This document shows, piece after piece, positions 26,880 to 58,733 of a stretch of 64,000 nt of DNA. Every line of letters begins with the position of its first letter. Within the stretch, counting starts at the first letter, position 1. The DNA is from a virus: the IMG/VR virus record IMGVR_UViG_3300009146_000001, positions 12,046 to 76,045 of that record, one strand, 5' to 3'. Below the pieces are notes generated by a model. That model saw nothing but the letters and a program-made list of their open reading frames with translations, had not been told where the DNA came from and made no database searches. The translations under genes were made by a program, and so were the position numbers.

Positions 26880-27593
26880 TCAGAAGCGCCGTCGCAGAAT
26901 CGGAAGGCTGATCAGGCCAAGGCCCATGAGCCCGAGGGTCCAACCCCCATCGGGGCAGGAGATTTCCAGCTTGGAAACCCGGACATCGAGGTTCGCGAGG
27001 GCCGAGGCGTCCACGAAGATGGCGACTGCGCCGACGTTCGCGTAATCCACCGACCCGACAACCACCGAGGGGCTCGACAGATCCACCGAGTAGTCGGCCA
27101 GCCCGACAGCGAGGTTGATGTTGTAGAGGTTGTAGTTCCCGGCATCCGTCGCGATTGCGATTTGCAGCACGGCGGTCGGGAGATCCGCAAAGGCGGACAC
27201 CTCGATGGTGCCGTTCTGGCATTCGCTGATGTCGAGATCCAGACCGTAGTCCAGCTCGTTGGCGGTGATCCGGTTGTTGGCGTTCGCGTCCGTGATCCCG
27301 GCGACACCGTCCCAGACGATCCCACCCTCACCGCGACCGGCGAAGGAGGCGTAACCGCCAGCGTTGAACGCGACACCCGTCGCGAAGATACCTGCCGAGG
27401 TGGACCAGACCGCCGCGTCACGGATACCGCCGACTGCACCGGGGTGGGCGAAGGTTCCCGTCGCGATCTGCGGCGGGGTGAGGGAGTTCAGCATGACGAT
27501 ATGGGGACCGCCCAAGAAGTCGTCGATGACGATGGTTGAGGCCGACGCGGACAACGCCGCGCTGAGGCCGAGGACTGACAGGAGTCTCTTCAT
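26880..27593 (-). CDS. PEP-CTERM (VPDSG-CTERM-like) surface protein
   Basis: Signal peptide; C-terminal CPDGGWTL + TM helix + RRRF. Confidence 0.85.
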   Translation of the reverse strand: MKRLLSVLGLSAALSASASTIVIDDFLGGPHIVMLNSLTPPQIATGTFAHPGAVGGIRDAAVWSTSAGIFATGVAFNAGGYASFAGRGEGGIVWDGVAGITDANANNRITANELDYGLDLDISECQNGTIEVSAFADLPTAVLQIAIATDAGNYNLYNINLAVGLADYSVDLSSPSVVVGSVDYANVGAVAIFVDASALANLDVRVSKLEISCPDGGWTLGLMGLGLISLPILRRRF

Positions 27594-44008: not shown

Positions 44009-44332
44009 ATGCAACGACCAACAATCCAAGCTGAGGGTGTGGTGTATATGGCACCGCAACTCAGGGACTTTCCCGGTCAGGAACCCTACGTCGAATTCGT
44101 TCTGGAGCTGGAGCCACGGACCAACAGCTTGGGCAGGGAATACCGTGAGCGAGTCTACGTCCGCCTCTTCGGGATACGCGGGATGAATGCGCTCGTCGAG
44201 ATCAAGCTGGGCAACTACGTCAGCGTCGCCGGGGAAGCGGACAAGAAGATGTTCACCGCACCGGACGGCCGCAACTTCGCCAACCTCGTCGTCATCACCA
44301 ACGGCTACAAGGTTCTCTTCCGCCCGACATGA
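44009..44332 (+). CDS. OB-fold SSB-like protein
   Basis: PQLRDF...VRLFG...KLGNYVSVAGE. Confidence 0.65.
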   Translation: MQRPTIQAEGVVYMAPQLRDFPGQEPYVEFVLELEPRTNSLGREYRERVYVRLFGIRGMNALVEIKLGNYVSVAGEADKKMFTAPDGRNFANLVVITNGYKVLFRPT

Positions 44333-45708
44333 CAACCCCACATCCCGCCTACGCCCGGCTCGAAACCCTGCGGCCCAAGCTTCTGCCTTGGCAGCCGGAG
44401 GCGTGCGAGAAACTGATCGGGTCCATCCTCCGCCATGGCTCTGCCCTCGATAGCTCCGACACCGGGGTGGGCAAGACCGCGCACGCGATTGCCTGCGGCT
44501 ACGCCCTCGGCATGCCGTTGGCCATCGTCTGCTCGAAGTGGGCCAAGCCGCAGTGGAAGTACATGGCATGGATGCTCGGCAATACGAACATCGCCGGGGT
44601 CCATCACTGGGAGGAGGTGCGGCTGGGCAAGACGCCCTTCGGCAACTGGGTCAACCCGGATGCCAAGGAGAACTTCCAGTGGAAGCTGCCGCCCCATTCC
44701 CTCGTGGTCTTCGACGAGGTTCACAAGGCCGGGGGATTCAAGACGCAGAACTCGTGGATCATGATATCGGCCAAGCGCAACGGCCACTCCGTCCTCGGGC
44801 TGTCCGCCACGGTAGCGGATACGCCGCTAAGGATGTTCGCCCTGAGCTACGTGCTCGGGCTTGTACCAACGACTCGTGCCTACTGGCCGTGGCTCATGTG
44901 CAACGGGTGCCAGCGCAACCAGTGGAACGGGATGGAGTTCAGGGATCCATCGGGGCGGCACACGGCACGGATCCACGACATGATCTTCAAGGCGGGCAGA
45001 GGGGTGCGGGTGAAGAAGGATGAGATCCCCGGTTTCCCGGACATCCTCATCGACGTCGAGACGATGGACTGCTCCGACGCCACGGAGGAAATCGCCAAGG
45101 CGTACAAGGAAATCGAGGAAGCCTTGGGTGAGTACACGGCCAAGATCATCTCCGCCACGAGTGCGGCCGAGATCGTGATCCGGATGCGCCAGAAGATCGA
45201 GCTGCTCAAGATCCCGGCCACGGTCAGCATGGTCGAGGACATCGAGGATGACGGAGGTGCGGCCGTCATCTTCGTCAACTACCGGGAGACGGCGATCAAG
45301 CTATGGTCGGCACTCAACTTCAGCTCGAAGGGCGAGGTTGGTCTCATGATCGGAGGGATGAAGGAGTCGGATATCCAGAAGCACATCCAAGCCTTTCAGG
45401 ATCAGGCGACCCACCGGCTCGTCGCCACCTACGGGTGCGGCTCGGAGTCCATCAACCTTCAAGACCTGACCGGGCAACGGCCGCGCACGGAGTTACTCTT
45501 CCCGACGCACTCGTCGCGCCAGATCAGGCAGGCGCAAGGGAGGATCCACCGGGCTGGCGGCAAGAGCTTGGCCAACGTGCGCTTCGTCTTCGCGGCCGAC
45601 ACCATCGAGGAACACCTGATGCGGACGATCCGGGACAAACTCCTGCGCCTCGACACGCTTCAGGACGGCGTCGCTTTGCCGATGCCCCTTCCTCCGGAGA
45701 TAGAGTAG
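44329..45708 (+). CDS. Superfamily 2 (SNF2-like) helicase
   Basis: LLPWQ, TGVGKT, DEVH, SAT, ESINL, QAQGRIHR. Confidence 0.9.
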   Translation: MTTPHPAYARLETLRPKLLPWQPEACEKLIGSILRHGSALDSSDTGVGKTAHAIACGYALGMPLAIVCSKWAKPQWKYMAWMLGNTNIAGVHHWEEVRLGKTPFGNWVNPDAKENFQWKLPPHSLVVFDEVHKAGGFKTQNSWIMISAKRNGHSVLGLSATVADTPLRMFALSYVLGLVPTTRAYWPWLMCNGCQRNQWNGMEFRDPSGRHTARIHDMIFKAGRGVRVKKDEIPGFPDILIDVETMDCSDATEEIAKAYKEIEEALGEYTAKIISATSAAEIVIRMRQKIELLKIPATVSMVEDIEDDGGAAVIFVNYRETAIKLWSALNFSSKGEVGLMIGGMKESDIQKHIQAFQDQATHRLVATYGCGSESINLQDLTGQRPRTELLFPTHSSRQIRQAQGRIHRAGGKSLANVRFVFAADTIEEHLMRTIRDKLLRLDTLQDGVALPMPLPPEIE

Positions 45709-45744
45709 AATGATTTACCGGCATGCTCGCTGCCCCACTGCCGC

Positions 45745-45919
45745 CGGTCTCCCGTGTGTTGCTTCACGGGCGGGGATCAGGTGCGACTTCGGCATGGACC
45801 TGAGCATTGCAACAGGGGAGGGGCCTGCCCTTGGTTTAATAGGGCCAAGGGATCCATCCCTCAGCCTCGGTTGAAGGGGCGGCAACCGGGGTAACGCTCC
45901 CCGCCAATGCCGAAGACCG
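45745..45919 (+). ncRNA. Candidate structured RNA with a pseudoknot
   Basis: Nested helices and a 9-bp loop-distal pairing (see findings). Confidence 0.45.
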
Positions 45920-46037
45920 CCCCACTTTTCCTCACCATAAATTCAGTGAAGTGCTCATTGACTCTTGACATATATTCCCCTAGTTAAGGGGCATATGATC
46001 AAGTGGCTAGATGAACAACGTAGGATCCTCGCGGAAC

Positions 46038-49000
46038 CTATGCGAAAGCCGCCGGGCGCATCTTCCGTCCCCGTGATCGGCCCACCGCATAACGTAAGAG
46101 TCCACGGTCGGAAGCGGAACGGCGTCGTCCGGCCCCTCGTCTTCCGAGCAAGGAGCGACGTGACGCTTGGCGGCCACCTTGAAGCTTTGGAACTGCGACA
46201 GCGGGTGCACGACGCAGTGCTCGAACGGCTGGCAGCTTAGCGGATTTTCCGCTAGCGGATGACGACTTGGCGAGGCGGATCCCACCTCCGCCTCCGCCAC
46301 CCCCGCCTCCACCCCAGCTTGCGGCACGGCCACTGCCTCCGCCCTTGGAGAGGGCTTTAATCGCCGCCTCCCGGTGCTGTACCGCCGTAAATTGCTTCGG
46401 CGTCAGCCGCTTCAGCGTGTCCTCCTTCTCATCCTCCTCGGGCACGTTGTCATACATTCGCCAGACGGATCGGGAGGCCACCGCTTGGTTGACCCGCTTC
46501 GCCGCCGCCGACTGGTCGATCCCCTTCTTGTGCATGAGCTGGCGGATCCCCTCGGCCTTCTCCTCCTCCGACTTGCGCTTGGCCTCGGGGTCGCCGGTCC
46601 GCTCGTACTCAATCCCCCACTTGATCGCCCGCTCCACGTTGTCGGAAGCCGGGTTCTGGGACACCTGACCGAAGGGGCGATGCGCAATCTTGGTACCGTA
46701 GTCGATGCCGGGGATGGCTTCGACGAGCGTGCCGACTATGCCCGGAGGCGCGGACATGGCGCGGATCGAGGCGGCTGCCTCCCGGTACTCACGGTGCGCC
46801 GGGTCGTTCAGGTTCCAGAGGACACCAACGATGGGCAGACGACGGGCAAGGAACTTCCCCGTCTGCGTCATGATGACATCCTTGGTCGCCTTGATATCGG
46901 TGAAGTCCGCTCCACCAATGATCGCCTTGAAGGCATAGACGGCATCGGCCAAGAAGCCCAGCACGGGCGAGAAGGCACCAATCTCCAGCGTGCCTTCGCC
47001 GAACCCGGCGAAGAGGTCATCGTAGAATTGCCCGAGCGGGATCGAGGCGAGTAGCGCACCCGTGAAGACGATCAGCCCGGTGCGAAGGTCCGGGTTCCGA
47101 ATGAAGTTCTCGACGGTCCACCCCGGAGTGCGCAACCCCAAGGCCCCCAAGCCCCACGAAACCCCGAGCGTACCGATGGCTCCGCTGCCGAGCAGCAGGA
47201 AGAGGAGGCCAAGGATGTTCGCAATCTCCCTCGGGTAGCGGTAGTACCACGGCATCTTGTGCCGGGGCATCTTGAAGATTTCCCCGGTGACGATGCTGTA
47301 GAAGTTCGCACTGTTCCACACCTTGAGGGCGGCGAACGACCGGGCCACCTTGCCCTTCCATCCCTTGATGAACGCCACGGGTGGACGTTCCCGCAGGGTC
47401 TGGACCTGACTCTCGGTCAGGTAGTTGTTCATCCATGCGGTAATCGCAGGTTTCGGCAGCTCGGTCTGGACCGCCTCCTCCATCGACTTGCCCGTGGCGA
47501 TGGTCTGGTTGTAGAGGTTGATCATCACCGACTCCAAGGATCCACCGCCGGTCAGCCAGCGCCGGGCCATCCGGACATTCGCCCGGTTCATCCCGAGTTC
47601 CTTCTCGGTGAATGGGTAGAGCGGGTCCAAGGGATCGTCGGTCCACACCCCCTTCTTCTTCCGCTGGTCGAGTGCGCGCAACGCCTTCTGCTTGAGCCTG
47701 CGCAGATCGGCGACGGCCGTGTCCGCGAAGGTCATGTTGTTGATGTCCTCGGCGATGGTCCGGCTTTCCCTCGTGGCCCAGATTACAGCCTTGCCGAACG
47801 GCACGCGGGTGATCGCCGTGCTGATCCAGCGTTCGACGCCCTTGAAGAATCCGGACTGGCCGCGCTCGTACTCCAAGGCCCCGGTCACAGCCCATATGTT
47901 TCCCGAGGTCTTCTGGAGAAGGCGCTCATCGTAGAGCGTCATCCCACGGATGATGCCCCGGTCGCTCATCTCGACGATTGCACTGACCGACTTGTGGTAG
48001 GCCGGGGCAAGGATCGGGATGTGCCGGAGCATGGCGCGCAGCCACTTCGTCCTCCCAGCGCGGGTGTTGCTCAGATGGTAGACCGTGATCTTGGCGGCGT
48101 TCTTCATCCACCGCGCCACCGCCTTGGCCGTGCACAGCGGGAAGATGACGTGGCTCCAGAGAAGCTTCTGCTGGCGGTAGATGCCCGTGGTCAGGGTGAG
48201 TACCGTGTCCTTAATTACGGACAGGCTATTCCACAGGCCGGAAACCAAGGGTGCCACGCCAAGCATGGAACCCCAGCGAAACGTATCGTGGATGTGCTGC
48301 TCTGGATCGAGTGAAGCCTTGGCAAATTCCTCCATCAACGCGACCGACTGGTGCATGATCTTGTGAATCCGCTCCAGCTCTTCGAGATTGAGTGCCGTCT
48401 CCTCCTGAAACTTCTTCTGCACGAGTGTGTCGGCCTTCCCACCCGGAGTACCGACCGCCTTGTTCGCCTCGGAAATCTGGGCGACGACCACCGCGTCGAT
48501 CACCGACATCGCCTTGGCGAGGTTCGTCGAGTGATGATTCAGGACAACACCGTGCAGGGTGTTCATCGCCTGATGCGATGTGAGTCCGTACTCGTAGAAG
48601 CCCGACGGGGCTTCCATATCTCCACGCGGGGTAATGAAGCTGCTCTTGGTATCCGTCGATGTGCTGGACTTGGACTGCCGCTGCATGTCGAAGTCGTCCA
48701 TCTTCTCCTGCGCCAAGAGGAGCTTGTCCGCGTACTCGTTCTCGATCTCCTGCCGGATCTCGGCCGGTGTCCCCGTGGCCTTGCCCGATGCGACGACGCG
48801 GGCGGTCAGGTCGTCGATGATCTCGTTGAACGAGGTCACCGTCTTCTTGCCCTTCTTCAGATCCCTCCTGAGTTCATTGTAGTAATCCTCCATCCCGAAC
48901 CCGGCGTTGGCCCCCATGAGTTGTGAGTTCACCCGAGCGCGGTATCTCGGGTTCGAGGTCATGATGAATGAGTGGACCAGATGCTGGAAGGTCAGTGGCT

Positions 49001-52000
49001 TCGTCGCCTCATCGGTATGGCGGAGGACATTGTTGATATAGTCCGCACGGAACCCGGTCGGATCCGCAACCATCGTGCGCTTGTTCTTGTCGTCGCGCCT
49101 CTGCTGCTGCCCCTGCCTCGCCTTGCGGAAGTCTTCGAGGAGCATGCCCAGACGCTCCGGAACCACGAGGGACCGGGACATGATCATCGGCCCGCCACCA
49201 AAGGCCAGACGCTTGCGCTCCTTGTATGCCTCGGCCTTGCCCGGTGCCATCTCGTGCACCTCCAAGAGGTCGGCCGTCTCCGTCGTCAATTCCCCGGTCT
49301 GGCCGGAGACCTGCTTGCCAATCCCGCGCTCGTAAGCGGCCTGCGCATGGGCGGCGGCGATATCGGCGGGACTCACCGTGATCCAGCCCGTCGGGGAGAT
49401 GTGCCGACCCGCGTCGTACAGCCTGTCCCCCGCCACAACCGGGTCATCGTATGCCTCCTGATACGAATCGAGGATTACCTCGGTGACGAGCCAGCGGTAC
49501 GCATCCCGGTCTGCCTGCATCCTCGCCTGCGGATTGCGCATGTTCCGGATCAGGTCACCCCAGATCTCGGGCTCGACGTGCAGCTTATGGCCCTCCATCG
49601 CCTTGAATATCTTCTCGAAGACAATCCCCTGCTTGCGCTTGAGGCCCTGCTCGTGGATCCCCCAGTTGACGTAGGCCACCATCGCCTTGCTGTAGACGTG
49701 CCTGCCAAACCCCTTGATGGAATCCTCAACATCCTTGAGGACCGGGTTGAGAATTTCCCGGATGAAGTCGAGATTGATAAGCCCCTTGGCCCCCTGCCAG
49801 AAGAGACCCGCCTCGTCGATGGTGTGATTCGAGATCGCGTTCTGCGGATCGAGGAACACGGAGAGTTCCCGGATCACCTGCTCGTAACTCTGGAGAACGA
49901 CCGGGTCGGCCGTGTTGTAGTTGGCCGTGATCCAGTTGGTAATGTCCGTGATCGCCTGAATGATATCCACCCGAGCCTTCTCGGTCGGGAACTTCATCAC
50001 GGAGATCGAGAAGTTGCGCACCTCCCGGTCCTCAATCGTCTGGCCAGTCGCCGGATCCTTCCGCTCCATGAGGGGCATGACCAACGTGACGCTGCCGAAG
50101 GGTTCACCCTTGTGGGGTTCCTTCATCCGGATGATGTCGTTGGCCCGGCGGTGGATGAGGGCGACCGCCTGATTGACCGCTGCCCGGTAGTCCTTCGAGG
50201 CGGCGACGGACTCCATCATCTTGATCGCATCGTCGGTGGCTTCCCTCCTCAGGGCCGCTACCTCGGACGCCTTACTCAACCGGCGCAACCGCTCCAGCTT
50301 CTTGCCGGAATTGGTGGCCACCATCCGGAAGTTATTGAGCGCCCGGCGCACCGAGAACTTGTCCGGGTTCTTCTTCGACAGTGGATCAAGGACCGTGGCC
50401 AACGCCTGCATCTCCGCCTTGTCCACGGCGAAGTTGGAGGCCAGTTCCTGAAGATCGAGGATGATCGAGTACCCCGGACTCCATGCCTGAAGCGGAGGCA
50501 GCCCACCCGCCAGTGATGTCGTCGCCATCGCCACGGCCGCCGACTTCGTGAGGCCCGTCTTGGTGATGACGTCCGCCAAGATCCCGGTCTTGGAGATGTG
50601 ATCAAAGAAGTCGTGCGTCGTTGGGATAAGCCCGTTGAAGGCTGCCTGAATACTGGCTGGGTCCAGCCTTGGATCCGCTGCCAGAGCGTTGAACAACGCC
50701 TTGAGGTCGGAGAGGGATTGGGCCTGTCCCAAGAGACTCGCTGCCCCTTCCAGTGCCCGCTTGTCCTCGGCCATCCCGGTTGAATCCCAGTCGATGGGAT
50801 CGAATGCGGTGCTCGCCACCTTCGTACCCGTCCGGGCCTTGAGCCGAACGAGGTCGACGAGGGAATCGCGGATGCCGTCGATGCGGTTGGACACGCGCTG
50901 CCGGTACTGATCCTCGGTCGCTCCCTTGAGGAAGGTCTGCAACTCGCTGAGGGCGTCGGCCTCCGCTTGGGTGAGATTCTCTAACGAGGTCTTGGCCCCA
51001 TTGAGGTCGGCCATGAGCCGCTCGTGCGCGGCCGTGACACCGGCGGAGGCGTGAATGATCTCGGCAATCTCATCATCGGATAGCTCCGTCGCCTTGACCG
51101 TCCCGGCGAGGACGCGCTCCCAAGCCGAGAGCTTGGTCCCGGTCGGGGGTGGCGTTGCCGTCGCGATGTTCCTCGCCTCGGCAAGGCTGCGCAGGGTGTG
51201 GCCCGTACCCAATCCCGCCAAGGTCATGCGGGCTCTCCTCCGGTCCTTGGCCATCGCCCGGCGGGTAGCCAGTGGTGTGCCCTTGGGTGGCGGCGCGGCC
51301 GTGGCCCGTGCCTCAAGGTCGTTGATCATGGTCGTCACCGCCGGGTCGACCATCAATCCCTGCGCCCGCGTATGCTCCTCCAAGATCCGCTGGCCGAGCG
51401 GACCGACGTTCGAGGACGCCTTGAACTTGTCGTACTGATCCTTGTTGAAGACCGTGGACTGGAGCCGCTGTGCCGCCTCCTGTGCCGCCGCCGACACCTC
51501 GGTCTTCCCGGCCGTGAGGACGCTGGGCTTGCCCTCCTTCACCTCGTCGACGAATCCGGGTGCCGCCACCTTGGTGGCATCGCTTGCCCGGCGCTGGGTC
51601 TCCGTCCACTCCAAGAGGTTGTCGACCTGATCCCGCAGCCTGACGATGGCCTCGGGCATGAAGTGCTCGGTGACCCCCGTCTTCGGATCGGTGTACTTGT
51701 CCGCGAATGCCCGGTGCAGCCATGACTGGAACCGGCGGAAGAAGGTGATGAGGTTCTCCTTGATCGTCCCGATGAAGGTGACTTCCTCGGTGAGCCCGAC
51801 GCCGCCGCCGACCGGCCGCTTCGACGCCATCCGCAGGAGTTCCATCATCCATGCGGCCGGGGTGACCAGTCCGGGGTACGCCTCTTCCATCCCCTTCTCC
51901 AAGGCGGAGAGCTTGTCCGCCGGGATAAGTGTGCGGAGTTCCCGGAGGTGACGGCTGATCTTGTGCTGGAGGGAGCCCGGCTTGAGATGAAGGTCATCCC

Positions 52001-55000
52001 TGAGGAAGGCCACCAGCGCCATATGTTTGACCTCCTCGTCGAGCATCGCCCGCACCTTGGGTGAATCGAGGTGATCAACCTTGTCGCGATTAAGGGTAAG
52101 GATCGTCTTATCCCCTTCGACCGAGAGCACCATCGCCTTGGCCGTGGGGTCATCGGATAGCCGAACCTCATCCAGCCCGAGTAACTTGAGGTCCACGAGC
52201 GCCTCGCGCAGGGCTGCGCGTGATGCCTCAAGGTGAACATCCATCCGCTGGACGAGGGCATCCACGGTCTTCGGGATGTCGTCGATGGCCAGCCTCTTGA
52301 TCGCGTCCTCCAGCGGGGTCCGCCGCCTCTGCTCCTCCTCCGTCACCTCGGTCTTGGATCGCAGCGCGGCTGCCATCCTGAGCTGCTTGGTAACCTCGCT
52401 CTCGCTTTGGCTGATCCGCTGGCGCACCGGGTAGGAGATCCAGTCGCCTTCCTTCATCTGGCCGGACTCGACCTGTGACTCGAAGCGTTCCTCCAAGGAC
52501 ACGAGACGGCCGCCGTTCCCGTAGGCGAAGGTCTCCAGCTTGTCCGCCTCGGCAATCGGGATACCGATGCGGGCGGCTACACTCATGAGAATCGAGCGCG
52601 CCTCGTTCTCGTTCTTTTCGATGGTTGACCAGTAGCGATACGCCTCCGGCTCGGTCAGGACGCTGGTCTCATAGGTGTAGTCGAACTTGCCCGCCTGCGT
52701 GGAGAGCATGGCCTGCATGTACTCCTCATGCTCCTCGGTCTTCTTCTTGCCCAAGACGTCGCCGTAGACCCAGCGGAAGTAGGTGTCCCACTCATGCATC
52801 TTCCAGTCCCATGGCGACGCCCACGGAGCGGCGAGCGCATTGAGCTTGGCCTTGATGAGTTCGCTGCGGGTGACCTTCTCACCCCTGAGGAACTTCTCCT
52901 TCTTGACCTTCCTCTCCCCCTCCTCGGTGATGACCTCGGTTCGGACGGTGGTCGGCTCCTCCCAGATGTGGGTGATGAAAGCCTCCGGGGCCAACTTGAC
53001 CCCCTTCCTCTTCAGCTCTTCAGCCTTCTTTCTCTCGCTGACGACGGTGTTGAGCGCGGCCACCTCGGTAGTCTCCTGCTTCAGGGCAGGCTTGGTCGGA
53101 TCGGTGAGCAACTCCGGATCAAAGAACGTGGCGAGGTAGACCGGCTGCACCGTCCCGGTGAACTTCGGTGCCTCCTTGTTCAACGAAACCTGCTGCCGCT
53201 CCATGATCCCGCGAGGATCCGGACGGATAACGCCCTTCCACCGATCCGTGATCTCGCCTTCCCGATCAAGGACATGCTCGGCGAGGGCCGACCTCGGCAT
53301 GACCCAGTAGGGGATTCCCGTGGGATCATTGATGCGGAGGACTTCGTCGGTGCCCACCTTCCTGACCACCTTGACCGTGGCCTCGGGGGACAGGTGTTGC
53401 TGGAGATTCCCCAAAGCTGACCGGCGAATAACAAGGGTCTGGATTTTGGGGTGGCGGATCATCTGCCACCGCCCAGACCGCAAGCCCTTGGCCGCAGGCA
53501 GAAGCGGCACAGCCTCAAGGCCCTTGCGCCCAAGCTTGAGATGTTTCTCGCGCCACTTGCGGTACGCCCTCCACGCCGAGATTGGTGCTCCGCTGCTGGG
53601 AGTCACCCCCATCGGGTGCTCCGGGCTGGTCATGTGGGTGGTCGCGGACAGATCCCGCGTGGCATTGACCAGCAGGGGCTGAGGCAGTGTCGATAGTTCC
53701 CCCTCAACCAGACGCTGCGACTCCGCAATCGTGAGCGGGACCAAGCTGGATTTCTCCCATGTGAACTCCAGTTCCCAAGGTTCCAGATCGTGGCTCTTGG
53801 CTTCCTTCTTCGGATACCGGCCACGACGCACCTTCTCCTCCTCACGCCGTGCCTCCATCCGCATCCGCCGCAGTTCCTCGATACGTTCGGCTGCGGTTTC
53901 CTTGGCACGGACGCGGGAGGGAAGAAGCCTCATCCGGTCCATCCACGGGATCATCCACGGGAAGAGCCGCCCGCGCCGGGACACAGCGCGCTCTAACGCC
54001 TTGCCCTTCTCCTCGCTCAGTTGCCGGTACGCTTCGCGAGGAGATAATCTCCTGCCTTGCCCACGTCGGCGGCGATACCCGACAGCCGGGAAGAGTCGCC
54101 GGGTGACGCCTTTTTCAAGACCCGGCTTAAAGCGTTCAGCAATACCCCTTTGGCTTGCACGTTCGCCGGGCTTAGCACCTTCCCTGAGGAGTTCGGATTT
54201 TGCTGCTTCATTGTAAGCGTCAGTAGCTGCGTCGCCGATCTGTTCTACCAGCCATTCCTTGAAAGCTTCTGGGTCGGTGTAGACGTTGACCGGGACTCCT
54301 TTGACAATCTTGAGCGCGCCTCCCCCGATCTGTTCAGCCTCGGCCCATTCCGCGACGGCATCATGGAGGGCACGAACCACCTCCTTCATGTCGCTCGTCA
54401 CCTCGGTGCCGGTCTTCCCGCCGAAGAGAAGATCGCGCATCACCTGCCGCGCCCACCCGGCTACGCCCTCCCGATCCGTCGGCATGTCGGGCGTATCCAC
54501 CTGCTCGACGATGGAGTTGACGACGCCACGGGCGACGTCGGCCATGGTGATATCCCGCTCCATCTCGGCTTCGAGCTGGCGAAGGGGAATCCCCTCCTCT
54601 CTTGCGATGGCCTCGCGCTCCTCCTTCGTGGTCGTAGCTTCGAGTTCAGCCCGCGCACGGCTGATCTCCATCTGGGATTCGATCCGGCCAGTGGTTTCGC
54701 CAGCCTCAACCACCCCGGCGGTCTCAGCCTCAAGCCGGTCACGCTCCTGAGCATTGGCCTCCGCCTCCATCTCTGCGGTGGCGTCCTCGTTGGCGATGTA
54801 GACTCCCTCGTCCTTGCGCCGGGACACCTTGGTGGTGGTCTCCGTGTATAGCGCGGGTTCCGAAAAGGCGTCCTCAATCCACTGCTTCTGGAGGTTTCCG
54901 ATGTGATCGGCGAACTCCAGAAACTTGAGCATCGGCCATTCCATCGGATCGAGCCACTCCTCGGCGCGGGCCGTCGGGATCCGCATGGTGCCCAAGAACT

Positions 55001-58000
55001 CCGGCTTGTTCCAACGGTACTTCCCCATCCACTTGTCGATGCTCTTGCGGGTGTTCGACTTACCTTCCCGCTTGGCGAATGGATCGCCAATCATCACCCG
55101 CTGATCGACCCTCTTCTTGGTATCGTCGGTGCGGTACACCGGGAGCAGGTAGACCCGGCCCGTCTCCGGCCCTTCGTTGAAGGTGACGAATACCCAGCGG
55201 GCCGTCTGCTGCATCTCCTTGTTGCCGTTCCGGGAGTACCGGAGGATGTCATCGAACCAGCGTTGCGGATCCTCCCATGGGGCAGGGATGCCGTGGAACG
55301 GCCGGGCCAGTGGCCACTCCGAAGGCTGGAGATGCATCGCCTTCTCCATCTCCTCCTTCTCCTCGTCGGATGTTCCACGTGGAGCACCGAAGCGCGGGTC
55401 ATATGGATACCGCTGATCCTCTTTCTGCTCGGCCGCCATCCGGTCCAGACGGTGCCGCTGCCACAGTGGCACGTTGTCCCGCATGTTGATCTGCAAGGCC
55501 GTCGGCAGAAGGTCGGCATCGGTGGCCAGCCAGTAGCCGATGGTCTCGCTGATCTTCTTTATCGAGTCGCGCCTGAGTCCGCCGGTCCCGGCCTCCTTGA
55601 ACTTCTTGATCGAGTTCTCGTGCGCGGCCAGAGCGATGGCGATGTAGTCATCCCGGAGGCCGTACTCACCCGGAGCGCCCTCCTTCTTCGCCATGTCGAT
55701 GAGCTGCTTTAACCCCTTGAGGTAGTCGTCAACCGTGTAGGCCCCGGTCTGCTTGGCGAAGGCCAGAAGGAATCCGGTCCGCGATTGGATAAGGGCCGTG
55801 ATCTGGTCCTTGTCCATGAAGTCAAAGAGGCGCACACCCCCCTCCTTGTTCGGATTCGGAGGCGGCTTCTGGTAAGGCTTGGGCTTCTCCCCCGGCTCCG
55901 GCGGTGTCGCCCTCGGGTTGAGCGCCTCGGCCTGCTTGGCGGCATCCTTGGCCACCGCCTGATCGAAGGCTTCTCCAAGGTTGGAAAGGCCCCCTGATGG
56001 AGCCGGTTCTTCCTGAGCTGCTGCGGCGAGAGGCCCCTCCCCCTTCTCTGCCTTGGCCTTGTTCCGGGCGATGGCCTTCTCCTGCGCGGCCAGCTTCTTG
56101 GCCAGAGACTTATCGGCAACCGGCAACCCTACGGAGGCGACGATCTTATTCCCCTCAGCCAGCCAACGCTCGGCTTCGCTCAGCTCCTCTTTTTTTTTAC
56201 CCGGAGCCTCGGCCGCTGCGGCTGGCGCGGCGGGCTTGGCCGGTGCCATCTTCCGCTTGCGCTTCGTGGCGGCGGCCTTGGGTGGGTATAACCCATTTAC
56301 AAACGCATCGACTTCCTGCTTTTTGACTTGGGGCAACCTCCCCTTCACCTCCTCGGCAAACTTGCGAATCTCGGCCTCGCCATGGTTTGCCATCTTCATC
56401 TGCTGAATAAAATACAGGTCAGAATCCAAGGCGTCTCCGAGTTCACCTTCGCCTTCATCGACTGGAGCTGCTGGGCCAGCTTTCCGAACTACCCGCTTGC
56501 CCGTTGGCCTACCCGGACCTTCGTCCGTGTACCTCGGAGCCGGGAGCATCCGACGAGCTGGAGTTATCGGCTTACCCGGCAACCTGCGCCCCCCGTCCGT
56601 GTACCTCGGAGCCGGGAGCATCCGGCGCTTGGGAGTCGCTGCCGCCGGGGTCGCCGCTGCTGGAACAATGCTCCCGTTGTCGACGTAAACCTCGCTACCA
56701 TCCGGCCAAGTAACAATCGACAGGTTGGGATTCTGGCCTTCGGGCCTTAGATAGGTCACCACGCGAGGGGATCCATCTGCCATCATGACCGTGATCTTCG
56801 TGCCCGGTACTGGCGGGGTGAACTGCGCTGGTGTCGCTGCCGGGGTCGCTACTGGCGGTGTTGCCGCTGGAGTCGCTAGCGATTCTCCCGCTAGTGCGGT
56901 ACCAAGGCCAGCCGATGGTCCGGCCGCAGCCGGAGTTACCACAGCAGGATTCATGGGATCCCCGAGTTTCGCCTTGGAGATCCACGGATGACTACCCGCC
57001 AACCACTGCTCGTAGGTTGGCATCCAGCTACCCTTGCTTTGAACCTCCGCTTGAGGGGTGTCTCCCTGAGCTGCGGCCCTTGCCTTGTATTCCGCCTCAA
57101 GCTGTCCCCACCTCGCCAAGGCAGCCGCATCCCGCCTCTTATTCCTCTCCCCGATGTCCTCCTCTGGTGTCGCTAGCGGTTCTCCCGCTAGTGCGGGACC
57201 GATGCCACCCGTCTGCACCGGGCCAGCCGCCACCGGCCCGACCGCAATCGGAGGTTGACCAGTCGGGATCCGGACACTGGGCACGTTGCCGGTCGGTGCC
57301 CCTGTGCCGGTCGCCACCGGGCCAGCGGCCACAGGTGGCTGCGCGGCCTCATCCCTGCGCAGTTGTGCCTCCTCTGCCGCCACCTGCGCGGCAAGGCGAC
57401 GGCGCTCGCGCTCGTCCTGAACCTGCGTGATCGCGGCACGGATCTCAGCGATGCGCGTCTTGCGTTCTTCAATCGCCCGGCGCGTAGCGCGCTGGCCGGG
57501 AACCGACGCCGCACCGAAGACCGCTCCACCGATGGCACCGCCGACAAACTCCTGAAGCCTCTTCTTGGCAAAGTCCTTGAGGGCATTCGGATCCGCCCCG
57601 GTCAGGTACACGGCGGACAGATCGCCGAGGATGCCGGAGATATTTTCCTCCACCCCCTCGCTCAACATGCTGATCCCGAGTTCGCCAGAGGCGGATTCCA
57701 AGATCGGCTTGAGGTAGTTCTTTACGTCGTCATTGACCGTCCTCACCCGAGCCGACGCCTTCTCCCACGTGGTGGTCGGAATCCGTGGCGGCTGCGCGGC
57801 CTCGCGCTCGACGGCCTGCCGGAGTGACGCCATCCGTGGCGTCTCGCCGATCACGGGCGGAGCCCCTTCCCTGACCGCCCGGCGCATGGCCGCCAGTTCC
57901 TCGACCGTGCTGGCCCCGAGGCGCTCGGCATCACGGAGGGCGGTCGTCGCCGCCCGGCGCGCACCGATGGTACGGAGGGCCTTGCCCGGCGCACCGAGGG

Positions 58001-58733
58001 CGTACTCCGATGCGGCTTCGAGACCGGACTCGATCCCGGCCTGAGCAAGCGACCTCTCCGGGGAGACCCCCTGCTCGCGGAGTTCCGAGAACCGTGGACC
58101 GAAGGTCTGGCCTGCGCCCATGCCGACCAACCCGGCCACCCCAGTTGGCATCGTGGCCGCGAACTGAAGGGCCGACCCGATGGAGGTGCCGATGGGTTTA
58201 ACCATCTCGGCCAGTTCCGGATACTGCTCAGCCCCTTCGGCCGTCCAGTATTTGGCCATGTCCCCACGCCAATCCTTGGCCGCCTGCACCGTGGGACTGA
58301 ACCGTGCCGACTCCGCCATCTGGGCAGCGAAGGACGCCGGGTTCATCGGTGCGCGACCCGCCCGCGCTGACTCGTAGGCGTGCCGGGCATAGGCCGCAGC
58401 CGCCATGGGTGAACCGATCTGGTATGCGGCGGCCCCGGACTCGACGAGGTTGGGAACCGTCGACGACAAGGTCGACATCGTGTCCGACGCGACCAAGGCA
58501 GGGATGCTCGGGACTGGCGGAATATATTGCCTGACCGCTGAGGCCCGTTCCTCTGGTGATGCCCCGACGGATCTGGAGATGGCCGACTCCCGCGCCCGGC
58601 GCTCGATCTCCTGACTCTCCCGCTGCCGGGCGATGCTCGCGTTGATGAACTGCGGGGTGAGTTGAGCCGTTGAGGCAACCTCGATGTCGAAGGGGGTTCC
58701 AGTGGAACGCTCCCGGACGGTGACGATAGGCAT
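46038..58733 (-). CDS. Giant 4231-aa internal virion/ejection protein (large polyvalent type)
   Basis: Last gene of the ejection cluster; Gly/Ala helical N-terminus, hydrophobic C-terminal helices, degenerate zincin-like LDEEVKH...ELLRM. Confidence 0.75.
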   Translation of the reverse strand: MPIVTVRERSTGTPFDIEVASTAQLTPQFINASIARQRESQEIERRARESAISRSVGASPEERASAVRQYIPPVPSIPALVASDTMSTLSSTVPNLVESGAAAYQIGSPMAAAAYARHAYESARAGRAPMNPASFAAQMAESARFSPTVQAAKDWRGDMAKYWTAEGAEQYPELAEMVKPIGTSIGSALQFAATMPTGVAGLVGMGAGQTFGPRFSELREQGVSPERSLAQAGIESGLEAASEYALGAPGKALRTIGARRAATTALRDAERLGASTVEELAAMRRAVREGAPPVIGETPRMASLRQAVEREAAQPPRIPTTTWEKASARVRTVNDDVKNYLKPILESASGELGISMLSEGVEENISGILGDLSAVYLTGADPNALKDFAKKRLQEFVGGAIGGAVFGAASVPGQRATRRAIEERKTRIAEIRAAITQVQDERERRRLAAQVAAEEAQLRRDEAAQPPVAAGPVATGTGAPTGNVPSVRIPTGQPPIAVGPVAAGPVQTGGIGPALAGEPLATPEEDIGERNKRRDAAALARWGQLEAEYKARAAAQGDTPQAEVQSKGSWMPTYEQWLAGSHPWISKAKLGDPMNPAVVTPAAAGPSAGLGTALAGESLATPAATPPVATPAATPAQFTPPVPGTKITVMMADGSPRVVTYLRPEGQNPNLSIVTWPDGSEVYVDNGSIVPAAATPAAATPKRRMLPAPRYTDGGRRLPGKPITPARRMLPAPRYTDEGPGRPTGKRVVRKAGPAAPVDEGEGELGDALDSDLYFIQQMKMANHGEAEIRKFAEEVKGRLPQVKKQEVDAFVNGLYPPKAAATKRKRKMAPAKPAAPAAAAEAPGKKKEELSEAERWLAEGNKIVASVGLPVADKSLAKKLAAQEKAIARNKAKAEKGEGPLAAAAQEEPAPSGGLSNLGEAFDQAVAKDAAKQAEALNPRATPPEPGEKPKPYQKPPPNPNKEGGVRLFDFMDKDQITALIQSRTGFLLAFAKQTGAYTVDDYLKGLKQLIDMAKKEGAPGEYGLRDDYIAIALAAHENSIKKFKEAGTGGLRRDSIKKISETIGYWLATDADLLPTALQINMRDNVPLWQRHRLDRMAAEQKEDQRYPYDPRFGAPRGTSDEEKEEMEKAMHLQPSEWPLARPFHGIPAPWEDPQRWFDDILRYSRNGNKEMQQTARWVFVTFNEGPETGRVYLLPVYRTDDTKKRVDQRVMIGDPFAKREGKSNTRKSIDKWMGKYRWNKPEFLGTMRIPTARAEEWLDPMEWPMLKFLEFADHIGNLQKQWIEDAFSEPALYTETTTKVSRRKDEGVYIANEDATAEMEAEANAQERDRLEAETAGVVEAGETTGRIESQMEISRARAELEATTTKEEREAIAREEGIPLRQLEAEMERDITMADVARGVVNSIVEQVDTPDMPTDREGVAGWARQVMRDLLFGGKTGTEVTSDMKEVVRALHDAVAEWAEAEQIGGGALKIVKGVPVNVYTDPEAFKEWLVEQIGDAATDAYNEAAKSELLREGAKPGERASQRGIAERFKPGLEKGVTRRLFPAVGYRRRRGQGRRLSPREAYRQLSEEKGKALERAVSRRGRLFPWMIPWMDRMRLLPSRVRAKETAAERIEELRRMRMEARREEEKVRRGRYPKKEAKSHDLEPWELEFTWEKSSLVPLTIAESQRLVEGELSTLPQPLLVNATRDLSATTHMTSPEHPMGVTPSSGAPISAWRAYRKWREKHLKLGRKGLEAVPLLPAAKGLRSGRWQMIRHPKIQTLVIRRSALGNLQQHLSPEATVKVVRKVGTDEVLRINDPTGIPYWVMPRSALAEHVLDREGEITDRWKGVIRPDPRGIMERQQVSLNKEAPKFTGTVQPVYLATFFDPELLTDPTKPALKQETTEVAALNTVVSERKKAEELKRKGVKLAPEAFITHIWEEPTTVRTEVITEEGERKVKKEKFLRGEKVTRSELIKAKLNALAAPWASPWDWKMHEWDTYFRWVYGDVLGKKKTEEHEEYMQAMLSTQAGKFDYTYETSVLTEPEAYRYWSTIEKNENEARSILMSVAARIGIPIAEADKLETFAYGNGGRLVSLEERFESQVESGQMKEGDWISYPVRQRISQSESEVTKQLRMAAALRSKTEVTEEEQRRRTPLEDAIKRLAIDDIPKTVDALVQRMDVHLEASRAALREALVDLKLLGLDEVRLSDDPTAKAMVLSVEGDKTILTLNRDKVDHLDSPKVRAMLDEEVKHMALVAFLRDDLHLKPGSLQHKISRHLRELRTLIPADKLSALEKGMEEAYPGLVTPAAWMMELLRMASKRPVGGGVGLTEEVTFIGTIKENLITFFRRFQSWLHRAFADKYTDPKTGVTEHFMPEAIVRLRDQVDNLLEWTETQRRASDATKVAAPGFVDEVKEGKPSVLTAGKTEVSAAAQEAAQRLQSTVFNKDQYDKFKASSNVGPLGQRILEEHTRAQGLMVDPAVTTMINDLEARATAAPPPKGTPLATRRAMAKDRRRARMTLAGLGTGHTLRSLAEARNIATATPPPTGTKLSAWERVLAGTVKATELSDDEIAEIIHASAGVTAAHERLMADLNGAKTSLENLTQAEADALSELQTFLKGATEDQYRQRVSNRIDGIRDSLVDLVRLKARTGTKVASTAFDPIDWDSTGMAEDKRALEGAASLLGQAQSLSDLKALFNALAADPRLDPASIQAAFNGLIPTTHDFFDHISKTGILADVITKTGLTKSAAVAMATTSLAGGLPPLQAWSPGYSIILDLQELASNFAVDKAEMQALATVLDPLSKKNPDKFSVRRALNNFRMVATNSGKKLERLRRLSKASEVAALRREATDDAIKMMESVAASKDYRAAVNQAVALIHRRANDIIRMKEPHKGEPFGSVTLVMPLMERKDPATGQTIEDREVRNFSISVMKFPTEKARVDIIQAITDITNWITANYNTADPVVLQSYEQVIRELSVFLDPQNAISNHTIDEAGLFWQGAKGLINLDFIREILNPVLKDVEDSIKGFGRHVYSKAMVAYVNWGIHEQGLKRKQGIVFEKIFKAMEGHKLHVEPEIWGDLIRNMRNPQARMQADRDAYRWLVTEVILDSYQEAYDDPVVAGDRLYDAGRHISPTGWITVSPADIAAAHAQAAYERGIGKQVSGQTGELTTETADLLEVHEMAPGKAEAYKERKRLAFGGGPMIMSRSLVVPERLGMLLEDFRKARQGQQQRRDDKNKRTMVADPTGFRADYINNVLRHTDEATKPLTFQHLVHSFIMTSNPRYRARVNSQLMGANAGFGMEDYYNELRRDLKKGKKTVTSFNEIIDDLTARVVASGKATGTPAEIRQEIENEYADKLLLAQEKMDDFDMQRQSKSSTSTDTKSSFITPRGDMEAPSGFYEYGLTSHQAMNTLHGVVLNHHSTNLAKAMSVIDAVVVAQISEANKAVGTPGGKADTLVQKKFQEETALNLEELERIHKIMHQSVALMEEFAKASLDPEQHIHDTFRWGSMLGVAPLVSGLWNSLSVIKDTVLTLTTGIYRQQKLLWSHVIFPLCTAKAVARWMKNAAKITVYHLSNTRAGRTKWLRAMLRHIPILAPAYHKSVSAIVEMSDRGIIRGMTLYDERLLQKTSGNIWAVTGALEYERGQSGFFKGVERWISTAITRVPFGKAVIWATRESRTIAEDINNMTFADTAVADLRRLKQKALRALDQRKKKGVWTDDPLDPLYPFTEKELGMNRANVRMARRWLTGGGSLESVMINLYNQTIATGKSMEEAVQTELPKPAITAWMNNYLTESQVQTLRERPPVAFIKGWKGKVARSFAALKVWNSANFYSIVTGEIFKMPRHKMPWYYRYPREIANILGLLFLLLGSGAIGTLGVSWGLGALGLRTPGWTVENFIRNPDLRTGLIVFTGALLASIPLGQFYDDLFAGFGEGTLEIGAFSPVLGFLADAVYAFKAIIGGADFTDIKATKDVIMTQTGKFLARRLPIVGVLWNLNDPAHREYREAAASIRAMSAPPGIVGTLVEAIPGIDYGTKIAHRPFGQVSQNPASDNVERAIKWGIEYERTGDPEAKRKSEEEKAEGIRQLMHKKGIDQSAAAKRVNQAVASRSVWRMYDNVPEEDEKEDTLKRLTPKQFTAVQHREAAIKALSKGGGSGRAASWGGGGGGGGGGGIRLAKSSSASGKSAKLPAVRALRRAPAVAVPKLQGGRQASRRSLLGRRGAGRRRSASDRGLLRYAVGRSRGRKMRPAAFA
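55371..55386. promoter_or_regulatory. parS-like site TGTTCCACGTGGAGCA
   Basis: One mismatch to the bacterial parS palindrome TGTTCCACGTGGAACA. Confidence 0.4.
56522..56624. repeat. 31-bp direct repeat (RRMLPAPRYTD x2)
   Basis: 56522-56552 is identical to 56594-56624. Confidence 0.85.

What the first reader, a model, noticed from the sequence alone, without database searches (positions are those of the whole stretch)
45709..45935. Compact multi-helix RNA with a 9-bp pseudoknot after the helicase gene
Seen pairings on the + strand: CGGTCT 45745-50/AGACCG 45914-19; hairpin CCCGTG/CACGGG 45751-70; GGCGGGGA 45769-76/TCCCCGCC 45898-905; and hairpin TCAGGT/ACCTGA 45777-803, whose loop CTTCGGCAT (45787-95) is perfectly complementary to ATGCCGAAG (45907-15). 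Inner hairpins CCCTTGG/CCAAGGG and CCTCGGTTG/CAACCGGGG complete it. G-U wobbles favour the + strand. Most of about 175 nt is paired, at the convergence of early and late transcription. I cannot match it to tRNA, tmRNA, RNase P, introns or known riboswitches. Inference: an undescribed phage ncRNA or ribozyme.
Basis: partly seen in the sequence, partly recalled or inferred. Interest (0 to 1): 0.7.

Follow-up and report, generated by a model that had tools for sequence, protein, structure and literature searches.

The report
Doubly pseudoknotted phage RNA after helicase
A roughly 175-base stretch just after a phage helicase gene folds into a compact RNA with two pseudoknots, and a distant relative keeps the same fold with different letters, so it is probably a new structured RNA whose function is still unknown.

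Summary
The window alone does not show that they are more than chance. The MFE z-score is -0.94, and helix counts against shuffles give P of about 0.03-0.10.

The support comes from one homologue, L082, a metagenome contig whose helicase is 52% identical. It carries the same element at the same place.
- On a MAFFT alignment not fitted to structure, P3, P4 and the 9-bp pseudoknot keep 95% of cells paired. Six pairs changed on both sides. Slid controls give 34-49% paired and no such pairs.
- Hairpins P2, P5a and P6 recur at the same positions with unrelated sequence.
The P6 loop pairs with the 7 nt lying one A after the first pseudoknot's 3' strand. Chance P is 0.003 in the window and 0.0002 in L082.

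Rfam 15, ARAGORN, ORF tests and a reverse-transcriptase search give no known identity.

Verdict: a real, apparently undescribed RNA fold at the 3' end of the helicase transcript. Only two members are known, there is no expression data, and function is unknown. Ribozyme activity was not tested.

The parts
44329..45708 (+). SF2 helicase gene (459 aa). The RNA element starts about 40 nt after its stop codon.
   Evidence: Pfam Helicase_C/DEAD/ResIII and PHROG 62 DNA helicase. Homologues at 88% and 52% identity exist.
45709..45750 (+). Leader between the stop codon and the conserved fold. Poorly conserved; its pairings are unresolved.
   Evidence: 38% identity to L082. Different MAFFT runs align it differently. 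CGGTCT/AGACCG has no counterpart in L082.
45751..45770 (+). P2 hairpin, CCCGUG-8 nt-CACGGG.
   Evidence: L082 has CCAGCCC-14 nt-GGGCUGG at the same position (4387-4414).
45771..45776 (+). P3 5' strand CGGGGA. It pairs with 45898-45903 and closes the P4/P5/P6 junction.
   Evidence: On the unfitted alignment 5 of 6 pairs are kept in L082. A-U becomes G-C, G-C becomes G-U, and there is one C/C mismatch.
45777..45803 (+). P4 hairpin (CAGGU/ACCUG, plus C45784-G45797). Its loop carries the PK1 5' strand.
   Evidence: Three pairs changed on both sides in L082 (C-G to U-A, A-U to G-C, G-C to C-G). The outermost U-A is not kept.
45787..45795 (+). PK1 5' strand CUUCGGCAU in the P4 loop. It pairs with 45907-45915.
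   Evidence: L082 has UCCGGUAU/AUACCGGA. Eight of 8 aligned pairs are kept and two changed on both sides.
45804..45817 (+). Junction J4/5. It holds the motif GCAUU-NN-AACAG-N-GG, shared by both copies and unpaired in the model.
   Evidence: Alignments A3, A4 and A7. Both copies match the spaced pattern exactly.
45818..45862 (+). P5 (GAGGGG/UCCCUC) with the inner hairpin P5a (CCCUUGG.../...CCAAGGG).
   Evidence: L082 has GGG/CCC and an 8-bp hairpin GCAUG(G)UCA/UGACAUGC at the same place.
45865..45891 (+). P6 hairpin CCUCGGUUG-9 nt-CAACCGGGG. Its loop carries the PK2 5' strand.
   Evidence: L082 has a 10-bp bulged hairpin at 4509-4536 with unrelated sequence.
45876..45882 (+). PK2 5' strand GGGGCGG in the P6 loop. 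It pairs with 45917-45923.
   Evidence: L082 P6 loop UGGAGUA pairs with UACUCCA at 4557-63. In both copies the 3' strand starts one A after PK1's 3' strand. Chance P is 0.003 and 0.0002.
45898..45903 (+). P3 3' strand UCCCCG.
45907..45915 (+). PK1 3' strand AUGCCGAAG.
45917..45923 (+). PK2 3' strand CCGCCCC.
45924..45931 (+). ACUUUUCC directly after PK2. A weak U tract and possibly the 3' end of the transcript (inferred).
   Evidence: Sequence. L082 has a strong hairpin (-20.7 kcal/mol) plus UUUUUGUUU one nt after its PK2. The simple terminator scan found none in either.
45965..46003 (.). Imperfect palindromic hairpin between the element and the stop codon of the giant gene. Possibly a two-way terminator or operator. 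Not part of the conserved fold.
   Evidence: z = -3.1 on + and -3.25 on -. No U tract follows on either strand.
46038..58733 (-). Convergent 4231-aa ORF (context).
   Evidence: No Pfam or PHROG match. Its C-terminal part is conserved in L082.

Best explanation
The stretch 45751-45923 (+) encodes a conserved RNA domain of about 175 nt, apparently a new family. Helix P3 closes a junction of three arms (P4, P5/P5a, P6), and hairpin P2 precedes it. The 3' tail leaving P3 pairs first with the P4 loop (PK1, 8-9 bp). One A later it pairs with the P6 loop (PK2, 5-7 bp). The tail therefore ties two arms together, and the 3' end is buried in the fold.

The domain has no promoter-like site of its own. 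It is most likely made by read-through from the helicase gene as the last part of the replication-module transcript, and the transcript probably ends right after PK2.

What is shown: the pairings, their conservation with compensatory changes in one relative, the lack of coding potential, and the lack of any Rfam match.

What is inferred:
- Transcription on the + strand and the position of the 3' end.
- The function. Both copies share the unpaired junction motif (GCAUU-NN-AACAG) and the CGG/CCG core of PK1. This points to a specific binding or catalytic core rather than a generic stabilising hairpin. My best guess is a stable 3'-terminal ncRNA that acts as a specific binding scaffold for a protein or small ligand.

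My odds: the fold is real, about 0.85. It is a + strand RNA, about 0.85. It works as a binding scaffold rather than one of the rivals below, about 0.4.
For: - The MAFFT alignment A7 was not fitted to structure. On it, the 21 pairs of P3, P4 and PK1 have 95.1% of cells paired, and 6 pairs changed on both sides. Structures slid by 1-3 columns give 34-49% paired and 0 such pairs.
- PK2 recurs with unrelated sequence at the same spacing. Chance P is 0.003 in the window and 0.0002 in L082.
- P2, P5a and P6 recur as hairpins at the same positions with different letters.
- A covariance model built from the window alone finds L082 at 34.6 bits, E about 1e-8. On that fitted alignment 92.9% of cells are paired and 13 pairs changed on both sides.
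- The two copies are well diverged: helicase 60.6% nt identity, element 52%, core 67%.
- Strand. There are 5 and 4 G-U pairs. The nested fold is 12 and 6 kcal/mol better on + than its mirror on -. L082 has a + strand hairpin of -20.7 kcal/mol plus a U tract one nt after PK2. No promoter-like site lies between the helicase gene and the element.
- Not coding. The frames over the core differ between the copies, with 1-nt indels. The 54-aa ORF has no relative among 5.8 billion proteins.
- Both pseudoknots have workable H-type geometry: linkers of 1-4 nt before stem 2 and 0-2 nt after it (my reading).
Against: - Only two members are known, so no R-scape-type statistic is possible. The shuffle control with two rows has little power (8/500).
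- In the window alone neither the folding energy (z = -0.94) nor helix counts (P 0.03-0.10) stand out.
- Two cells are broken: the outermost P4 pair and a C/C mismatch in P3.
- PK2's 5' strand lies in a loop that cannot be aligned by sequence. Its homology therefore rests on position, and I noticed it after inspecting helix lists, which is post hoc.
- I drew the helices on the + strand, so the strand energy comparison is biased.
- No RNA-seq run was listed, so transcription and RNA ends are unshown.
- The window has no canonical terminator after the element.
- Nothing found here bears directly on function.
Confidence: 0.65

Rival explanations
1. A cis-acting 3'-end module. The knotted fold only protects the helicase-operon mRNA from 3' exonucleases, or helps end transcription where the two gene blocks converge. 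It has no specific partner.
For: It sits at the very end of the + strand gene block in both genomes. The 3' tail is fully paired. In the window PK2 is followed by ACUUUUCC, so PK2 could act as a terminator stem. L082 has a terminator one nt after PK2.
Against: A generic block needs neither the shared unpaired 12-nt junction nor a four-arm fold with two pseudoknots. L082 already has a strong ordinary terminator hairpin. The window's U tract is short, and the scan called no terminator.
Confidence: 0.2
2. A self-cleaving ribozyme that processes the 3' end of the transcript.
For: It is a compact, doubly pseudoknotted fold with a conserved junction, as in the HDV-like and glmS ribozymes (my knowledge of those families). 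Small ribozymes are common in phage genomes (PMC3088659).
Against: No ribozyme family in Rfam 15 matches either copy at E <= 10. A hand test of the HDV-like topology fails. The spacer between the would-be P4 and P2 is 31 nt, there is no P1.1, and the leader pairings are not kept in L082. No cleavage data exist.
Confidence: 0.12
3. A riboswitch-type sensor that sets read-through at the terminator behind it.
For: It looks like an aptamer: a junction closed by pseudoknots with conserved unpaired bases. In L082 a terminator abuts its 3' strand. In the window PK2 plus a U tract could be the terminator itself.
Against: What lies downstream is not conserved. In the window it is the end of a convergent gene. 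In L082 it is a second hairpin with a U tract (my reading of the sequence; the fold does not reproduce it) and then a relocated PEP-CTERM-like gene. There is no Rfam riboswitch match. I found no convincing antiterminator.
Confidence: 0.08
4. Not a functional RNA. The inverted repeats are chance in GC-rich DNA, or are DNA-level sites such as protein-binding repeats or an origin.
For: Single-sequence statistics are marginal. There are only two sequences. Background 4-5 bp 'conserved' helices with one double change are common in the same alignment. The site lies at the end of the replication module.
Against: Crossing helices are kept through six double changes on an unfitted alignment. A second pseudoknot has identical spacing. 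G-U pairs fit only the + strand. The element is single-copy in the genome.
Confidence: 0.1
5. A small protein gene (the 54-aa ORF 45710-45874, with a GGAG 10 nt upstream).
For: An ATG with a Shine-Dalgarno-like GGAG follows the helicase stop.
Against: In L082 the ORF that starts at the stop codon reads the conserved core in another frame. 1-nt indels break every frame. No protein shares words with the ORF among 5.8 billion, and it was not called as a gene in its own record.
Confidence: 0.02

Closest known systems
Orphan candidate structured RNAs of phages and metagenomes (csRNAs, PMC10690425; 'motif' RNAs, PMC2864571)
   Same: An intergenic, conserved secondary structure found by comparison, with no known function. 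It occurs in uncultured phage genomes and is sometimes next to a terminator.
   Different: It has two crossing H-type pseudoknots and four arms in about 175 nt, and only two members. It is not in Rfam 15. I could not check it against the csRNA lists.
Riboswitch aptamers in which a hairpin loop pairs with the 3' tail outside the closing helix (for example SAM-IV; from my knowledge of that family)
   Same: A multi-helix junction closed by one stem, a loop-to-3'-tail pseudoknot, conserved junction bases, and a terminator directly behind (L082).
   Different: No sequence or profile match. It has two loop-to-tail pseudoknots. It lies after a gene rather than before a conserved regulated gene.
Doubly pseudoknotted self-cleaving ribozymes (HDV-like, glmS; from my knowledge of those families)
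   Same: A compact fold held by two pseudoknots, of similar size.
   Different: The order of strands differs. Both pseudoknots here use one 3' tail, and there is no P1/P1.1/P2 nesting. There is no Rfam match. Cleavage was not tested.
Flavivirus exonuclease-resistant RNAs (xrRNA; from my knowledge)
   Same: A junction plus a loop-to-downstream-tail pseudoknot in a 3' untranslated region.
   Different: xrRNAs are about 70 nt, form a ring around their 5' end and block a 5'-3' exonuclease. Here the 3' end is the one tied in, and the host is a bacterium.

Membership tests
Any Rfam 15 family | Score at or above the family's gathering threshold | tested here: not met
   There are no matches in the whole window. 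At E <= 10 the two homologues get only weak, mutually different hits of 10-18 bits.
tRNA / tmRNA | Cloverleaf or tRNA-like domain detected by ARAGORN | tested here: not met
   No genes in the window or in L082. The junction spacers (0, 14, 2 and 6 nt) and arm sizes do not fit a tRNA.
H-type pseudoknot (structural class) | Hairpin-loop bases pair with a downstream strand, and the linker lengths can span the stems | tested here: met
   For PK1 the linkers are 4 nt before and 1-2 nt after. For PK2 they are 2 nt and 0 nt in the window, and 1 and 1 nt in L082 if the pairing is read as 5 bp. Both are kept in L082.
HDV-like ribozyme | Nested P1/P2 double pseudoknot with a 2-bp P1.1 and a short J4/2 | tested here: not met
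   Tested by hand. ACCGGC/GCCGGU and AUGCUC/GAGCAU could mimic P1 and P2 in the window. But the would-be J4/2 is 31 nt, there is no P1.1, and the arrangement is not kept in L082.
HDV-like or other self-cleaving ribozyme | Site-specific self-cleavage | not testable with these tools
   Needs an in vitro transcript.
Transcription-terminating riboswitch | Aptamer upstream of the same regulated gene(s) in different genomes | tested here: not met
   Downstream is the end of a convergent gene in the window. In L082 it is a relocated PEP-CTERM-like gene.
Transcription-terminating riboswitch | Intrinsic terminator overlapping or abutting the aptamer's 3' strand | tested here: inconclusive
   L082 has a -20.7 kcal/mol hairpin plus U tract one nt after PK2. 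The window has only ACUUUUCC after PK2. The scan called none.
Transcription-terminating riboswitch | Ligand-dependent structural change | not testable with these tools
   Needs in-line probing.
Retron / DRT / UG27-type template ncRNA | A reverse transcriptase gene in the same element | tested here: not met
   No RVT_1 match in the whole 76-kb genome at E <= 0.1, while the control genomes matched. The family is described in bioRxiv 10.64898/2026.09.22.753630.
Small protein-coding gene | Reading frame and peptide conserved between homologues | tested here: not met

The most novel reading that the evidence does not exclude
The element founds a new class of catalytic or ligand-sensing RNA (a ribozyme or riboswitch-like aptamer) carried by an uncultured lineage of soil and sediment phages. 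Its active core would be the GCAUU-NN-AACAG junction, held in place by two pseudoknots formed with one 3' tail.
Probability: 0.18. Interest if true: 0.8.

Novelty: new variant of a known kind. Interest (0 to 1): 0.55.

Why it matters
Folds this intricate, with four arms and two crossing pseudoknots in about 175 nt, are rare among bacterial and phage RNAs. When studied, such folds have usually turned out to be ribozymes, riboswitches or specific protein partners.

This one sits in a phage lineage with no cultured relative and almost no annotated genes. Its role could therefore expose an unknown step of infection.

The case is still thin. There are two sequences and no transcript data. Thousands of orphan phage RNA candidates are already listed (PMC10690425). 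For now it is a well-supported candidate, not a discovery of function.

Tried and rejected
Tools and slips
I could not fetch the contigs of the closest helicase relatives: P0002 (88% identical), P0003 and P0004 (52%).
- One search used a pattern with the wrong spacing (5 N instead of 4). Its empty result means nothing.
It printed only lengths, and no result from it is used.

Searches for more homologues, all empty
- Correctly spaced core patterns gave only chance hits in viral contigs: 23 loci, none with the pseudoknot, and one unrelated family.
- In genome contigs there were 5 hits, all coding, such as LuxR-type sequence.
- blastn and nhmmer of the intergenic region against 80 loci with 30-37% identical helicases found nothing. 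Neither did the INPHARED phage collection.
- Covariance models R1 and R2 found nothing in 83-85 loci. There is no second copy in the genome. Nothing was found in 150 sampled genomes of one phylum.
- A helicase profile found nothing in 401 genomes of that phylum. tblastn against cultured phages gave at best 24% identity.

Sequencing runs
- No RNA holder was listed.
- Logan contigs of four soil, rhizosphere and sediment runs were short pieces identical to the window, with no variants.

Ideas rejected
- Stop-codon read-through. The frame after the stop is open for 62 codons in the window but only about 15 in L082.
- A promoter of the element's own: none found.
- A leader hairpin ACCGGC/GCCGGU and a leader-to-junction helix AUGCU/AGCAU (AUGCC/GGCAU in L082). 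The leader alignment is unstable and the arrangement differs between the copies, so I left these unresolved.
- A common non-coding slot after the helicase gene in distant relatives. The gaps range from overlap to about 640 nt, so there is none.

Full report
Where it lies. The window is bases 12046-76045 of a 76,045-bp IMG/VR virus record with direct terminal repeats. The finding lies between two convergent genes. One is an SF2 helicase gene (44329-45708, +; Pfam Helicase_C/DEAD/ResIII, PHROG 62). The other is a 4231-aa ORF on the minus strand that ends at 46038 and has no Pfam or PHROG match. The + block upstream holds an ATPase and an HNH-like gene. The - block holds a virion structural protein. 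'Replication block meets structural block' is therefore reasonable. 'Early' and 'late' are inferences.

Checking the observation. Some bases are used twice: G45769-70, and 45914-15. In the window alone the signal is weak. The MFE z-score is -0.94 on + and -0.23 on -. Against 1000 dinucleotide shuffles, the longest perfect helix (9 bp) has P = 0.10, and the sum of the five longest has P = 0.03.

Known families. Rfam 15 gives nothing at gathering score in the whole window. At E <= 10 it gives nothing relevant in or around the element. ARAGORN finds no tRNA or tmRNA.

The homologue. 
- Its region after the helicase stop aligns with the window's.
- Synteny holds. Upstream genes, the helicase and the C-terminal part of the giant gene all match.
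- L082 carries an extra + strand gene between the RNA and the giant gene. That gene is homologous to window 26880-27593.
- Nucleotide identity is 60.6% for the helicase, 52% for the element and 67% for its core. The copies are far enough apart for pairing to be informative.

Covariation on an unfitted alignment. On the plain MAFFT alignment A7, the 21 pairs of P3 (45771-76/45898-903), P4 (45777-82/45798-803) and the pseudoknot PK1 (45787-95/45907-15) have 95.1% of cells paired.
- Six pairs changed on both sides: one in P3, three in P4 and two in PK1.
- One pair changed on one side, to G-U.
- Two cells are broken.
- Structures slid by 1-3 columns give 34-49% paired and no double changes.
- In a blind list of all helices kept in both rows, P4 (5 bp, 3 doubles) and PK1 (8 bp, 2 doubles) rank first. 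The rest are 4-5 bp with at most 1-2 doubles, which is the background level.

Hairpins and the covariance model. Hairpins P2, P5a and P6 cannot be aligned by sequence. But L082 has a hairpin at each of the three positions: 4387-4414, 4476-4496 and 4509-4536. A covariance model built from the window alone with the nested helices (R1) finds L082 4392-4561 at 34.6 bits, E about 1e-8. On that alignment 92.9% of cells pair and 13 pairs changed on both sides. This alignment is fitted to the structure, so it leans towards it.

A second pseudoknot, and the outer helix rejected. In L082 the P6 loop UGGAGUA (4519-25) is complementary to UACUCCA (4557-63). That strand starts one A after PK1's 3' strand. 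In the window the P6 loop GGGGCGG (45876-82) is complementary to CCGCCCC (45917-23), again one A after PK1's 3' strand. The chance that a random 12-nt tail of the same composition holds a complement this long to that loop is 0.003 (window) and 0.0002 (L082). I take it to be spurious.

Strand and transcript ends.
- The model has 5 (window) and 4 (L082) G-U pairs. These would be A-C mismatches on the other strand.
- The nested fold is -65.3 against -53.4 kcal/mol (window) and -40.1 against -34.5 (L082) for + against the mirrored - strand. This comparison is biased, because I drew the helices on +.
- In L082 a -20.7 kcal/mol hairpin followed by UUUUUGUUU starts one nt after PK2 on the + strand. 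The simple scan missed it because of a 1x1 internal loop.
- The window has only ACUUUUCC after PK2. A palindromic hairpin follows at 45965-46003 (z about -3.1 on both strands).
- No promoter-like site lies between the helicase gene and the element.
I infer co-transcription with the helicase gene and a 3' end just after PK2. No RNA run was available to test this. Logan contigs of four soil, rhizosphere and sediment runs were identical short pieces.

Not coding, not a reverse-transcriptase partner. The 54-aa ORF that begins after the helicase stop is not conserved. The corresponding L082 ORF reads the core in another frame, and 1-nt indels interrupt every frame. No protein among 5.8 billion shares words with it. 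The genome has no reverse transcriptase. That rules out retron-, DRT- or UG27-type template RNAs.

How widespread it is. Correctly spaced core patterns gave only chance hits in IMG/VR and in GTDB genomes. Models R1 and R2 found nothing in 83-85 loci of distant relatives. The genome holds one copy. Nothing was found in 150 sampled bacterial genomes. There are no cultured relatives. The family has two known members. Close relatives may have been withheld by the tools or be out of reach.

What it does. This is inference. Both copies share an unpaired 12-nt junction (GCAUU-NN-AACAG) and the CGG/CCG core of PK1, all inside a junction locked by two pseudoknots. That pattern suggests a specific binding or catalytic core. 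My ranking is:
- a stable 3'-terminal ncRNA that serves as a binding scaffold, about 0.4;
- a plain 3'-end protection or termination module, 0.2;
- a ribozyme, 0.12;
- not functional, or a DNA-level feature, 0.1;
- a riboswitch, 0.08, disfavoured because the downstream context differs between the two genomes;
- a small protein, 0.02.

Novelty and score. The fold matches no curated family and differs in topology from the double-pseudoknot ribozymes I compared by hand. But orphan structured RNAs in phages are a known and crowded category (PMC10690425). I rate it a new variant of a known kind, with interest 0.55.

Noticed in passing
window 46038-58733 (-): A single 4231-aa ORF with no Pfam or PHROG match at all. 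Its C-terminal part is conserved in L082.
   Followed up: partly
L005 2189-2348: In one distant relative (helicase 36% identical), tRNA-Ala and tRNA-Thr genes sit directly after the helicase gene, in the slot the structured RNA occupies here.
   Followed up: no
window 45965-46003: An imperfect palindrome (UUGACAUAUAUUCCCCUAGUUAAGGGGCAUAUGAUCAA) folds well on both strands (z about -3.1). It has no U tract. It may be the two-way terminator or an operator between the convergent blocks.
   Followed up: partly
L082 4735-5465 versus window 26880-27593: The secreted PEP-CTERM-like gene, which lies 18 kb away on the minus strand in the window, sits on the + strand right after the RNA and its terminator in L082. 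It looks like a relocated moron-like gene.
   Followed up: partly
window 45958-45971; L082 4666-4685: Both genomes have paired TTGAC motifs just downstream of the RNA: TTGACTCTTGACA in the window and GTCAATCCGTTGACA in L082. These may be a promoter or operator.
   Followed up: no
window 46236-46258: A copy of the palindrome CTTAGCGG-N5-CCGCTAG lies inside the 3' end of the giant ORF. Other first-stage notes report about 15 copies of this palindrome across the genome.
   Followed up: no
window 44900-46300 (runs X1-X5): Short contigs identical to the window turn up in rhizosphere and soil metagenomes from different studies. The phage therefore appears widespread at low abundance. Evidence is thin: contigs of 150-300 nt.
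   Followed up: partly
window 45721-45727, 45791-45796, 45803-45807, 45907-45911: The motif GCAU/AUGC recurs in the leader, the P4 loop, junction J4/5 and the PK1 3' strand, in both homologues. This allows mutually exclusive pairings: leader with loop, leader with junction, or loop with tail. It could be a folding switch or mere coincidence.
   Followed up: partly
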